This document shows, piece after piece, positions 60,001 through 63,000 of a DNA stretch of 64,000 nucleotides. The stretch covers positions 1,312,001 through 1,376,000 of the forward strand of contig OZ250165.1 in NCBI GenBank assembly GCA_965238005.1. The letters run 5' to 3'. Within the stretch, counting starts at the first letter, position 1, and the number at the start of each line of letters is the position of its first letter. This stretch comes from Longimicrobiales bacterium. GTDB taxonomy: Bacteria; Gemmatimonadota; Gemmatimonadetes; Longimicrobiales; Gaopeijiaceae. Position numbers: made by a program.

Positions 60001-63000
60001 GTCCGTGGACGTTCGCCACCGACGGTGGATGGAGTCGAGGCGTTTTCGGCATCCCCACTGTGGGGTTCGCTCCGGGTGAGGAGCGTTTCGCTCACACCAA
60101 TCGCGAGCGGCTCGACGTAGAGGAAGCCCGTTGGGCCTACGCCCGTTACCCGGACCTGATCCTCGCGCTACAGGAGGAGCTCTCTTAGGAGCGGTCCCGC
60201 GGGCGCTCTTGGAACTTTATCCCCGGTAGCTCGCCACCCTCATGCCGGTGGCTGTGCGGGGGTACAAAACGCACGGGCATGGCATATATTAAGCGGCTCA
60301 TCCCGCTCCGCCCGCGTGGCGGGGCCCGTGTGTACATACGGACCGTGGGAGAAAAACCATGCGGCTATACGAGATCGTCTACATCTTCGACGCTACCCTC
60401 GACGAAGATGCGGTCAATAAGAAGCTGGAGAAGTTCCATCCCCTCGTGATCGGAAGCGACGGCGAAGTCATGGCTGTCGATCACTGGGGGGTGCGTCAGA
60501 TGGCCTACCCCGTGAAGAAGCAGAAGACAGGCAATTACGTGGTGGCGCAGGTTCGCGCCGGCTCCGACGGACTTCCGGAGTTCGAGCGGGTGCTCAGACT
60601 CGATACCGACCTCATGCGGTACCTGGTCGTCGTGAACGAGGGGGAGCCTACGTCGGGGAGGTCGATCCTCGGAGAGCCCCCCCCCCGCGCCCAAGAAGAC
60701 GCTGATGACGACGATGACGATGACGACCATGCGGATCCTGATGACGAAGCGTCCGAGATCGATGATAACGCCGCCGTGCGGCACAGCCCTCCTGAGTTCA
60801 GCGGTGGCCGGGGACGCCGGCGTCGTATGGAGGGGCCGGTCATCGAGCTCCTCAACTACAAGGACGTTTCGACGCTGTCTCAGTTCATGACCGAGCAGGG
60901 AAAGATCTTGCCGAAGCGTACGACGAAGGTCACGGCCCGCTTCCAGCGACAGCTCGGACGCGCCATCAAGCGGGCCCGGTATCTGGCGCTGATCCCATAC
61001 GTCCGGGACCACGAGGTCTAGGCCTCCTCGGAGCGAGATCTCTTGGATTCCACGGCGCGGCCGGAGCGAACATGGCTACGGGCCGCCGCACTCCTGCTCG
61101 TCACTCTCGCGCTGGCAGTTGTCAGTGCAGGGGTGTTGGTGGCGGTACCGTTCCTGGTCCTCGCGCTGGTCTTGGGCGCCCGCAGGTTTCCGACGGTGAT
61201 GGCCGCCATTCTGGCCGTGATGGTCACATTGGGGGTTACAGCACGTGGCGGTATCTGGTATCTGGAGCGCGGGTGGGCGGTCGTCTTGGCGGGATGGTTC
61301 GTGGTCCTGACGATGCGCTGGCCCGGCAGCCGGTTCTTCCCGCGAGCCTTGGGGGCCGTCCTGGGCACCTTCGCCCTCGTAGCGGCACTTCTGGCGCTCC
61401 AACCGGGCTCCTGGGCCATGGTGGACTGGCTCGTTACCGAGGGAATCATGAAGAGTGTCAGTCTGGCCATGAGCCTGCTGACGGTCCTGAACCCCGAACG
61501 GGACATCCCGACTGCCATGGTCAACAAAGTGTTCGCGACCGCGGCGCAGCAGGGAAGGCTCTTCCCGGCGCTTCTCGGTCTGTCGTCACTAGCGGGACTC
61601 GGAGTGGCCTGGTGGGGCTACGTTAGACTCTCTGCGGGGAATGACCAGGGATTGGGGCCGCTCAAGGATTTCCGGTTCAACGACCACTTTCTGTGGCTGT
61701 TACTGGTGGGGCTGACCTTGATCGTGCTCGGATTGGGTGAGGCATGGACGTTGGCGGGGACCAACGCCGTCGTGTTCATGGGCGGGCTCTATGCCATCCG
61801 AGGGGCCGCCGTGGTTCTGTTCTTCAACGGTGGTATCTCGCTGTTCGGTTTCTTGGCGGTGGCGCTCGGCATGTTGTTCCTTGCGCCTGTATTGATCATA
61901 GGGGCGCTGGTCATCGGCGTCGGCGATACTTGGCTCGACCTACGCGCCAAGGCCGAGGCGTTGGCCAGCGGCACTGACTCGTAGACGGAGACGGTCCATG
62001 AAGCTCATTATGAGGAAGACGGTGGAGACGCTCGGAGGTGAGGGCGACATCATCGACGTAAGGCCGGGTTACGCGCGCAACTATCTGATTCCCCAAGGAC
62101 TCGCGTACGTGGCGAGTGACGCCAACCTGAAGAGGTTGGAGGAGGAGCATGCGCGGGCCGAGGAGAGCGCCAGGCACGACTACCTGGAGGCGCGTCGTCG
62201 GGCGTCCCAGCTCGAAGGCACGTCGCTCGTATTTCACGTCAGAGCGGGGGATGACGGCAAGATGTTCGGCTCCGTAACGAACGCCGACGTCGCCGATCAG
62301 TTGAACCATGGAGAGCTGGACTTCGAGGTGGACCGACGCACCGTCATACTCGAAGAGCCGTTGAAACTCCTGGGGACCTTCAAGGTGCCGGTTCGCCTCC
62401 ACAGTCAGGTCGAGGTCGACGTGGAGGTTCGTATGGAGCGAGGCGAGGAGTAAGCCTCTAGAGGTCGGGATGTGAGATCAGTCGAGCACCGACGTGTCCG
62501 AGATTGGCCAAGACGTGCAGCGAGCAGCGGAGTTCGCCCTCGAACGCAAGGCAGCCGACGTGGTTGCACTCGACCTGAGGGGCATCTCGAGCGCCACGGA
62601 CTACTTCCTGCTCGCCACCGGGCAGTCCGACGTCCAGGTGAAAGCCATCGCCGACCACGTCATCGGGGAACTGAAGAAGGAGGGTATCCGACCGGCCCAT
62701 GTCGAGGGGCTGCAGGGGGGCCGCTGGGTCCTCGTCGATTACATCGAGTTCGTGGTGCACGTCTTCCACCCGGGGGCACGGGAATTCTACCAGCTCGAGG
62801 TTCTTTGGGGGGACGCTACGATGCATGAGTTCAAGTGACGAGGACTGCCGTACCGCACCCCTTGTCAAGCCCTTGTTTACAAGCGTCCGGGTGGACATGT
62901 AGCTTGAGGTGGCAGCCGAAACGAGCTGCCCAACGGACGCATCGACGGAGGCTGCAATCCAACCCTCGCTAGGAGCGTAGGGCCCGTTGGATCGGGGCCA

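What a model noticed while it worked through the whole genome (the two positions that open the first line are those of the whole stretch)
60359..61021. Ribosomal proteins bS6 and bS18 fused into one chain
Gene g01326 encodes one 220-aa protein with a complete bS6 domain (residues 4-91), a 60-residue acidic linker with a run of eight Asp, and a complete bS18 domain (165-212); no separate rpsF or rpsR exists. I read it as a natural covalent bS6-bS18 heterodimer built into the 30S platform of every ribosome, fixed in this family and scattered elsewhere in the phylum. As far as I can find, no fusion has been described of these two bacterial core ribosomal proteins, which normally bind as a pre-formed dimer next to the anti-Shine-Dalgarno tail. 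It offers a natural test of ordered 30S assembly.
Evidence so far: pfam.tsv shows Ribosomal_S6 (E 4e-24, model 2-89 of 90) and Ribosomal_S18 (E 1e-21, model 5-52 of 52) on the same ORF with no stop between. No other gene of the genome has either domain. There are 1738 homologues of 121-385 aa. All 120 best clusters (71-96% identity, 100% of the query covered, 214-225 aa, many from contigs over 1 Mb) carry both PF01250 and PF01084, so this is not a sequencing fault of this assembly. In a tblastn-type search of whole genomes I counted a genome as fused when both domains lie in one open frame long enough to span them, in the same frame, with no stop. By this count 14 of 14 other genomes of this family are fused: 9 as one match over residues 1-219, and 5 as two [...]
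(Added by a program. Inside this text positions count along the whole contig: contig position 1,312,001 is position 1 of the stretch shown here. "Call 12" and the like, gene names such as g00115 and contig names such as C1 are that model's own, and its searches are not shown. The text may have been shortened before it was handed on; [...] marks where a part breaks off. The agent that wrote the report below was given it as the finding of a first reader that could run no searches.)

Follow-up and report, generated by a model that had tools for sequence, protein, structure and literature searches.

The report
Fused S6-S18 ribosomal protein gene
In this bacterium and every examined member of its family, two small-subunit ribosomal proteins that normally pair as separate chains are encoded as one protein, a real but modestly surprising variant that also turns up in other bacterial groups.

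Summary
Window 60359..61021 (+) is one 220-aa ORF with a complete bS6 domain, a roughly 70-residue acidic-then-basic linker and a complete bS18 domain. It is the only copy of either domain in the 4.84-Mb genome.

All 66 other genomes examined from the same family (Gemmatimonadota) have both domains in one stop-free frame. The two sister families (16 of 16 genomes) and 129 of 129 other genomes of the phylum keep two genes.

The origin is simple. In 22 of 22 unfused relatives rpsF ends in an acidic tail whose last codons form the Shine-Dalgarno site of rpsR. In 21 of these the rpsR start lies -1 to +6 nt after the stop. Losing that one stop gives the fusion.

Two things are new here. The fused S18 has lost all four zinc-ligand positions that every unfused relative keeps. 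And a conserved structured leader (60299-60360) that matches the published S6:S18 autoregulatory operator is retained.

The same architecture does recur in other phyla, and this scan found it before on other DNA. Databases label it plain "S6".

I found no paper describing it. There are no protein data, so cleavage is not excluded. Verdict: a new variant of a known kind, of moderate interest.

The parts
60299..60360 (+). Structured 5' leader resembling the rpsF operator. P0: CCC 60302-60304 pairs with GGG 60347-60349, inside the Shine-Dalgarno GGGAG 60347-60351. P1: GCUCCG 60305-60310 pairs with CGGGGC 60320-60325. P2: CCGU 60326-60329 pairs with ACGG 60338-60341. Bulge ACCGU 60342-60346 holds the conserved CCG (60343-60345).
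   Evidence: Conserved block in 15 of 15 family loci. RNAalifold consensus of 14 pairs. Covariance model R1 gives 69.1 bits, E 3.7e-16, the only strong hit in the 64-kb window. 98.5% of cells are paired against 94.3% in shuffles, and pair 7/155 is U-A 13, C-G 12, U-G 3. No Rfam family matches.
60359..61021 (+). Fused rpsF-rpsR gene: one 220-aa ORF, stop codon included.
60368..60631 (+). bS6 domain (residues 4-91).
   Evidence: PF01250 E 1.3e-23. TIGR00166. AlphaFold2 pLDDT 76-92 with beta-alpha-beta-beta-alpha-beta order. Foldseek best match is bS6 of solved ribosomes, TM 0.90 on the target, rmsd 1.4.
60632..60850 (+). Linker (residues 92-164). It runs from the conserved NEGEPT-G-S segment through a variable acidic stretch with Asp 116-123 to the conserved basic PPEFSGGRGRRRR-x-EGP.
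   Evidence: pLDDT under 50 for residues 95-165. Between the NEGEPT and NYKD motifs the length is 53-145 residues (median 67.5) and the median acidic fraction is 0.28, in the 122 of 124 proteins where both motifs were found. Family ORFs reach 345 aa. Alignment A1.
60851..60994 (+). bS18 domain (residues 165-212), the zinc-free form.
   Evidence: PF01084 E 4.1e-21. TIGR00165. Ungapped alignment to bS18 chains of solved ribosomes; K204, R205 and R207 align with K60, R61 and R63 of the 75-residue chain. The zinc-ligand positions of unfused relatives are G159, a gap, T192 and F195 here.
61043..61984 (+). 313-aa predicted membrane ORF between the fused gene and rplI. It is context, not shown to belong to the feature.
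   Evidence: No Pfam family even at E up to 10.
61998..62453 (+). rplI (bL9), the usual downstream partner of the rpsF-rpsR cluster.
   Evidence: PF01281 and PF03948.

Best explanation
This is a genuine in-frame fusion of rpsF and rpsR. It arose once, in the ancestor of this Gemmatimonadota family, by loss of the single stop codon between two abutting, translationally coupled genes.

The product is most likely one chain. A bS6 domain and a zinc-free bS18 domain are joined by a disordered tether made from the old acidic S6 tail and the old basic S18 N-terminus. The chain would fold into the usual S6:S18 pair intramolecularly and bind the S15-primed central domain of 16S rRNA as a ready-made 1:1 unit.

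The same chain probably represses its own translation. It would do so by binding a conserved leader that holds a CCG bulge and pairs with the Shine-Dalgarno sequence.

Shown: the gene structure, its distribution, the origin at the junction, the loss of zinc ligands, and the conserved leader structure. Inferred: the uncut chain in ribosomes, intramolecular pairing, and autoregulation.

The fusion is probably nearly neutral, perhaps mildly useful for stoichiometry and zinc independence.
For: (1) One ORF, both domains complete, the only copies in the genome.

(2) Family f1. In one search, 24 of 24 genomes are fused: 23 as one match over residues 1-217 or more with no stop, and G020 as two in-frame matches in one 291-codon frame. 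In one search, 47 of 47 are fused: 32 as one match and 15 as two matches with the same open-frame length, in frame by my arithmetic on the coordinates. Five genomes occur in both calls, so 66 distinct genomes in all. 19 further family loci translated directly are single ORFs of 213-345 aa.

(3) Sister families f2 (8 of 8) and f3 (8 of 8) have two matches. 15 of these were read directly: each has a stop after rpsF and rpsR lies in another frame.

(4) Across the phylum, the S18 open frame is 225 aa or more in 17 of 17 f1 genomes, and none of 129 other genomes is fused.

(5) Junction. In 22 of 22 unfused relatives the rpsF tail ends in a GAGGAGG-like stretch just before the stop. In 21 of 22 an rpsR start codon lies -1 to +6 nt after the stop. 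In 7 of 22 the two genes are in the same frame.

(6) The residue at M157 is M, V, H, I, F or T across the family, and the old S18 start aligns near residues 151-153 rather than 157. So there is no conserved internal start.

(7) The S18 RNA-contact residues K204, R205 and R207 are invariant in 48 of 48 aligned family proteins. PMC4647458 (passages read) names their E. coli equivalents as needed for leader binding.

(8) The leader is conserved with covariation. [quoted passage not shown]

(9) The S6 domain folds as canonical bS6.
Against: There are no protein data, so a cut in the long disordered linker would go unseen.

The AlphaFold2 model gives the S18 domain only pLDDT 45-55 and does not show the two domains docked. 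The alignment behind it was shallow: 48 close relatives.

Met157 is present in 118 of 122 close homologues, so internal initiation in this sub-clade is not excluded.

One family genome (G118, locus L052) gave no leader match, so autoregulation is not universal in the family, or the start there is misplaced.

Rfam has no match to the leader, so its identity with the published rpsF leader rests on a verbal description, not on a model comparison.

The RNA-library contig that spans the linker would look the same for two genes on one transcript.
Confidence: 0.8

Rival explanations
1. Polyprotein: the chain is translated whole but cut in the disordered linker, so mature ribosomes carry ordinary separate bS6 and bS18.
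For: The linker is long (53-145 residues and more), low in complexity and predicted to be disordered, which makes it an easy protease target. Its middle part is free to vary in length and sequence.
Against: No conserved cleavage-like motif is seen in the variable part. The conserved linker segments (NEGEPT-G-S and PPEFSGGRGRRRR) adjoin the domains and look like the old tails. No dedicated protease gene lies beside the gene. The same fusion persists in other lineages with very short linkers, for example a 149-aa protein with only about 3 residues between the two Pfam domains, where cutting is hard to picture.
Confidence: 0.12
2. Dual output: besides the fused chain, ribosomes start inside the ORF near codon 157 and also make free bS18.
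For: ATG at codon 157 is present in 118 of 122 close homologues. It follows a G-rich stretch.
Against: The position is His, Val, Ile, Phe or Thr in deeper family branches. The nearest GGGGA lies 12 nt before the ATG, longer than the usual spacing, which I give from memory. The old S18 start aligns upstream, not here. Free S6 could still not be made.
Confidence: 0.06
3. Artefact: a sequencing or assembly error removed a stop or shifted the frame between two ordinary genes.
For: None beyond the prior that single-genome fusions are often errors.
Against: 66 of 66 other family genomes, 120 of 120 clusters and independent public runs with exact contigs over 60426-60665 and 60636-60805 all show the same open frame.
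Confidence: 0.01

Closest known systems
Canonical bacterial bS6:bS18 heterodimer (rpsF and rpsR products; PDB 1G1X and 4YBB appear among the structural matches)
   Same: Both domains are full-length and score above the curated cut-offs. The S6 fold matches with TM up to 0.90. The S18 domain aligns without gaps to solved bS18 chains and keeps the RNA-contact residues. The gene is followed by rplI.
   Different: It is one polypeptide. None of the 60 PDB sequences shown, of 125 matched, holds both domains, and all the chains are 135 residues or fewer. There is no free S6 C-terminus and no free S18 N-terminus.
rpsF leader, the S6:S18 autoregulatory operator (Matelska 2013 and Fu 2014 as cited in PMC4647458 and PMC10931766; I read passages of those two papers, not the originals)
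   Same: It lies directly before rpsF. It has a CCG in a bulge between a stem and a hairpin, and the Shine-Dalgarno sequence lies inside the closing stem.
   Different: In the fused family an extra hairpin (P2, CCGU/ACGG) sits between P1 and the bulge, and unfused relatives lack it. The presumed ligand is one chain rather than a two-protein complex. There is no Rfam match, and binding was not tested.
Zinc-binding and zinc-free forms of S18 (primary S18-1 and alternative S18-2 of mycobacteria; PMC5912738, passages read)
   Same: Unfused Gemmatimonadota S18 carries C..C x(20-40) C..H in 22 of 22 cases. The fused S18 has none of these ligands. This parallels the zinc-binding and zinc-free split.
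   Different: Here the zinc-free form is the only copy and is welded to S6. It is not a Zur-regulated spare paralogue. Zinc binding by the unfused forms is inferred from the motif alone.
S6-S18 fusions in other lineages
   Same: The order is the same, S6 then S18, with both Pfam domains. 45 of the 56 distant representatives I scanned carry both families, and 43 of them were printed and read. Three Atlas clusters of 61, 55 and 88 members are mostly Pseudomonadota.
   Different: Those are 24-63% identical with mostly short, non-acidic linkers (149-266 aa in all, except the two close ones of 275 and 295 aa). They are plainly independent events. 8 of the 10 I looked up are single sequences on one contig, so some may be errors.

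Membership tests
bS6 (PF01250, TIGR00166) | Sequence match above the curated cut-off over the whole domain | tested here: met
   PF01250 83.4 bits (cut-off 27), model positions 2-89 of 90. TIGR00166 78.3 bits (cut-off 42.9).
bS6 (PF01250, TIGR00166) | Ferredoxin-like beta-alpha-beta-beta-alpha-beta fold of S6 | tested here: met
   AlphaFold2 gives elements E2-11, H16-31, E36-52, E55-67, H69-81 and E85-93 at pLDDT 76-92. Foldseek best match is 8cwo_F, TM 0.90 on the target, rmsd 1.4.
bS18 (PF01084, TIGR00165) | Sequence match above the curated cut-off | tested here: met
   PF01084 75.3 bits (cut-off 21). TIGR00165 76.2 bits (cut-off 38.75).
bS18 (PF01084, TIGR00165) | Basic residues that contact the paired cytosines of 16S rRNA and of the leader (E. 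coli K60, R61, R63; PMC4647458) | tested here: met
   An ungapped alignment puts K204, R205 and R207 on them. They are invariant in 48 of 48 family sequences.
Zinc-binding (C+) form of S18 | Cys/His ligand set C..C ... C..H | tested here: not met
   0 of 120 close homologues have the motif and 117 of 120 have no Cys at all. 19 of 19 further family ORFs have no Cys. 22 of 22 unfused relatives have it.
Canonical two-gene rpsF/rpsR arrangement | A stop codon after rpsF and a separate start for rpsR | tested here: not met
   There is no stop between the domains. No conserved internal start exists.
rpsF leader (S6:S18 operator) | Lies in the 5' UTR directly before rpsF | tested here: met
   The R1 match at 60299-60360 ends at the ATG. 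It is in the same place in 28 of the 31 other loci searched (27 at the rpsF start, L039 as a partial match).
rpsF leader (S6:S18 operator) | [quoted passage not shown] | tested here: met
   CCG at 60343-60345 lies between P2 and P0. The two C are invariant in 15 of 15 family loci. The P0 pair covaries U-A/C-G. The structure is predicted, not probed.
rpsF leader (S6:S18 operator) | Binds the S6:S18 protein and represses translation | not testable with these tools
   Needs a binding assay or a reporter assay.
rpsF leader (S6:S18 operator) | Match to a curated covariance model | tested here: inconclusive
   No Rfam 15 family matched 59800-62600 even at E up to 10. I do not know whether Rfam holds this motif.

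The most novel reading that the evidence does not exclude
The covalent tether took over the job of the zinc site. In the ancestor of this family, welding S18 to S6 would have made the zinc-stabilised N-terminal knuckle of S18 dispensable. All four ligands were then lost and four residues deleted. That would give a platform module that assembles at fixed 1:1 stoichiometry without zinc and represses its own mRNA as a single-chain ligand on a remodelled leader with the extra P2 hairpin.

If so, the family is a natural experiment on three points: whether S6:S18 pre-dimerisation limits the rate of central-domain assembly, what the S18 zinc site is for, and how an operator tuned to a two-protein complex adapts to a single chain.
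Probability: 0.15. Interest if true: 0.6.

Novelty: new variant of a known kind. Interest (0 to 1): 0.45.

Why it matters
bS6 and bS18 must pair before they bind the S15-primed central domain of 16S rRNA, and the pair also represses its own mRNA. Both facts are textbook, and were re-read here in passages of PMC4477670, PMC10931766 and PMC4647458.

A whole bacterial family that has run on a single-chain version for a long time gives a ready-made reagent. It could test whether dimer formation limits assembly or regulation. It shows that both termini at this corner of the 30S platform can be tied up. It also offers a design for tethered ribosomal proteins.

The practical point is annotation. Public records call the gene plain "30S ribosomal protein S6", so marker-gene sets may score S18 as missing in these genomes.

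Against this, the fusion takes one mutation, it recurs in other phyla, and it needs no new mechanism. A specialist would be interested rather than astonished.

Tried and rejected
Rfam scan of 59800-62600 at E up to 10: only two chance-level hits (HCV_SL669, H19_2) and no ribosomal leader family.

Promoter and terminator scan of 60000-62600: 0 promoter-like sites and 2 terminator-like sites, no more than the shuffled expectation of 1.6.

Pfam on the 313-aa ORF after the gene, to test my guess that it is like YybS (DUF2232): nothing, even at E up to 10.

L021 (Thermoanaerobaculia) and L020 looked fused in the tblastn summary. They are two genes in different frames. L022 (Deltaproteobacteria) and L018 have the genes in the same frame but with a stop between them.

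Genomes G097 and G271 (open frames of 268 and 276 aa) looked like possible fusions outside the family. They have very long acidic S6 tails followed by TAG and then ATG.

Ten non-family genomes with S18 open frames of 148 aa or more were checked and rejected by frame arithmetic, or because S6 lies on another contig.

AlphaFold2 did not give a confident S18 domain or a docked pair, so it says nothing about intramolecular pairing. I did not run complex prediction, because a pass for a textbook pair would not have changed my odds.

Laid reads: all four runs are contigs, so no transcript ends, strand or expression level can be read. Parts without RNA cover mean nothing.

A second R1 hit in the window (18878-18940, 13 bits, E 0.38) and one in L051 (12 bits) are taken as chance.

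Literature searches that found no description of the fusion. Yutin 2012 (PMC3353972) holds none of the words fusion, fused or S18. PMC2837039 mentions fused clusters but not this pair. PMC4477670 and PMC10931766 discuss the heterodimer but no fusion. The paper on zinc ribbons in ribosomal proteins that I recalled (tried as PMC56895) is not held. Subscription journals and supplements were not searched.
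Full report
**What is there**

Window 60359..61021 on the + strand is one ATG-initiated ORF of 220 codons. 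A GGGAG lies 8 nt upstream of the ATG.

Pfam places Ribosomal_S6 on residues 4-91 (E 1.3e-23) and Ribosomal_S18 on residues 165-212 (E 4.1e-21). The NCBIfam equivalog models for S6 and S18 both score above their cut-offs.

Between the domains lies a stretch that starts with NEGEPTSGRS, passes through an acidic run with eight Asp at residues 116-123, and ends in the basic PPEFSGGRGRRRRMEGP.

Six-frame searches of the whole 4.84-Mb single-contig genome find exactly one match to each Pfam family, both in this open frame.

**It is not an error**

All 120 of the best 120 protein clusters (of 1738 hits) carry both Pfam domains at full coverage, and many lie on contigs over 1 Mb.

In four public runs laid on the stretch, exact contigs cover 60426-60665 and 60636-60805. 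The only insertion or deletion reported inside the ORF is an in-frame 6-base one in the Asp run.

**Distribution**

Records that match the protein are titled Gemmatimonadota, Gemmatimonadetes or Gemmatimonadaceae.

In the genome's own family (f1):
- 24 of 24 relatives and 47 of 47 have both domains in one stop-free frame.
- Five genomes are in both sets, so this is 66 distinct genomes.
- 55 show a single match over residues 1-217 or more.
- The rest show two matches with the same open-frame length. Their coordinates differ by a multiple of three (my arithmetic).
- Five of the two-match genomes (G280, G196, G020, G225, G302) were among 19 further family loci that I translated directly. All 19 are single ORFs of 213-345 aa.

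Outside the family:
- The two sister families of the same order have two matches in 16 of 16 genomes. In the 15 I read (leaving out one unpublished genome), rpsF ends at a stop and rpsR lies in another frame.
- With the S18 part alone as query over 146 genomes of the phylum, the S18 open frame is 225 aa or more in 17 of 17 f1 genomes. It is 61-137 aa in 119 of 129 others.
- The ten longer ones were checked. S6 lies in another frame in nine and on another contig in one.

The fusion is therefore a single event at the base of this family.

Of the 419 unlisted matches, I covered only the genomes that also appear. The counts of unfused genomes include four genomes flagged unpublished (G025, G096, G192, G214). 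No fused count depends on them.

**How it arose**

In 22 of 22 unfused relatives examined (7 f2, 8 f3, 4 f7, 1 f5, plus L018 and L020):
- rpsF ends in an acidic tail, and its last codons read GAGGAGG or similar just before the stop. This is a Shine-Dalgarno site for rpsR.
- In 21 of 22, an rpsR start codon lies from -1 nt (TGATG overlap) to +6 nt after the stop.
- In 7 of 22 the genes are in the same frame, separated by a stop and 0-2 codons.

One substitution in that stop yields the fused gene. The linker is thus the old S6 tail plus the old S18 N-terminus. An alignment places the old S18 start near residues 151-153 of the window protein.

**What changed with it**

Every unfused S18 carries C..C x(20-40) C..H (22 of 22). 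This is the pattern of the zinc-binding form of S18 described for mycobacteria (PMC5912738, passages read).

The fused proteins have none of it:
- 0 of 120 close homologues have the motif, and 117 of 120 contain no cysteine.
- 19 of 19 further family ORFs have no cysteine.
- In the window protein the four positions are G159, a four-residue gap, T192 and F195.

This is one evolutionary event, so the link between fusion and zinc loss is an observation, not a correlation.

**The rest of the protein looks functional**

- The S6 domain is modelled with pLDDT 76-92, and its best structural match is bS6 of solved ribosomes (TM 0.90 on the target).
- The S18 domain aligns without gaps to solved bS18 chains. 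It keeps K204, R205 and R207, the counterparts of E. coli K60, R61 and R63 that contact the paired cytosines of rRNA and leader (PMC4647458, passages). These residues are invariant in 48 of 48 aligned family members.
- The linker (residues 95-165) is predicted to be disordered. It varies from 53 to 145 residues among the 122 of 124 close homologues where both flanking motifs were found, and is longer in others.
- The S18 domain itself is modelled poorly (pLDDT 45-55), and no docking can be read from the model.

**A conserved leader**

Directly before the ATG lies a 62-nt element (60299-60360) that is conserved in 15 of 15 family loci. The consensus fold has four parts:
- a closing stem (P0) in which CCC pairs with the GGG of the Shine-Dalgarno GGGAG;
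- a hairpin P1 (GCUCCG/CGGGGC);
- a second hairpin P2 (CCGU/ACGG);
- a bulge ACCGU.

A covariance model built from 14 loci finds the window copy at 69.1 bits (E 3.7e-16), with no other convincing hit in the 64 kb. It finds 8 of 9 held-out family loci at 30.7-66.3 bits; G118 (locus L052) has none. It finds the same site before unfused rpsF genes at 13.6-43.3 bits, and before a Thermoanaerobaculia rpsF at 15.4 bits.

On the model-fitted alignment, 98.5% of cells pair against 94.3% in shuffles. One stem pair alternates U-A (13), C-G (12) and U-G (3). The fitting biases these numbers upward.

P2 is present only in the fused family.

The element fits the published S6:S18 operator: a conserved CCG in a bulge between a stem and a hairpin, with the Shine-Dalgarno sequence in the stem (PMC10931766 section 2.4 and PMC4647458, passages read). 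Rfam gave no match, and I could not compare models. Binding and repression are inferred.

**Rivals**

Cleavage in the linker cannot be excluded without protein data (0.12). I saw no conserved cut-site-like motif and no adjacent protease. Other lineages keep the same fusion with almost no linker.

Internal initiation at Met157 (0.06) is possible in the close sub-clade, where 118 of 122 keep the Met. The position is H, V, I, F or T in deeper branches.

An artefact is excluded.

**Comparison and novelty**

- No PDB sequence among the 60 shown (of 125 matched) holds both domains.
- I found no paper that describes the fusion.
- Public records label the protein "30S ribosomal protein S6" or "small subunit ribosomal protein S6". 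One Atlas cluster bears the automatic name "Multifunctional fusion protein".
- The architecture is not unique to this family. Of 56 distant representatives I scanned from an exhaustive search, 45 carry both Pfam families, most with complete domains, at 24-63% identity. Three Atlas clusters of 55-88 members are mostly Pseudomonadota.
- Eight of the ten distant representatives I looked up are single sequences on one contig, so part of that scatter may be error.
- Earlier agents of this scan noted the same fusion in an endosymbiont, in SR1/Absconditabacteria and in a marine predatory family. I did not test those notes.

**Verdict**

This is a real, family-wide, single-origin fusion with a simple mutational origin. 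It comes with two added observations worth a bench test: the loss of the zinc ligands, and a retained and remodelled operator. It is a new variant of a known kind, with interest 0.45.

Noticed in passing
window 61043-61984 (+): A 313-aa ORF with many hydrophobic stretches sits between the fused gene and rplI. It has no Pfam family even at E up to 10. I guessed a YybS-like membrane protein, as found beside rplI in Firmicutes (recalled), but found no support.
   Followed up: partly
window 62987-64000 (+), ORF open at the window end: The translation holds about seven tandem copies of AAEPLEQ after an N-terminal part. I did not scan it against any library.
   Followed up: no
L023-L027, L018, L022 (unfused relatives): In 7 of 22 unfused Gemmatimonadota loci, and in a Deltaproteobacteria locus, rpsF and rpsR are in the same frame with only a stop and 0-2 codons between them (6 TGA, TAA or TAG cases plus L018). 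These genomes are one substitution, or one read-through event, from the fused form. Whether any read-through occurs is untested.
   Followed up: partly
L026 and L027 (genomes G097, G271), L045 (G280): The acidic tail or linker can be very long and rich in Ala, Glu and Asp. The S6 proteins have tails of about 100-140 residues in two unfused genomes, and the fused ORF in one family genome is 345 aa.
   Followed up: no
L052 (genome G118): This is the only one of 9 held-out family loci without a match to the leader model. Its upstream sequence looks unrelated, so either the leader was lost or the true start lies elsewhere.
   Followed up: no
window 60326-60341 and family loci: The extra hairpin P2 (CCGU loop ACGG) in the leader is present only in the fused family. 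Unfused relatives have a short unpaired spacer there.
   Followed up: partly
window 62494-62838 (+): An rsfS (ribosomal silencing factor, PF02410, E 1.3e-31) follows rplI. The stretch is thus a small cluster of ribosome-related genes.
   Followed up: no
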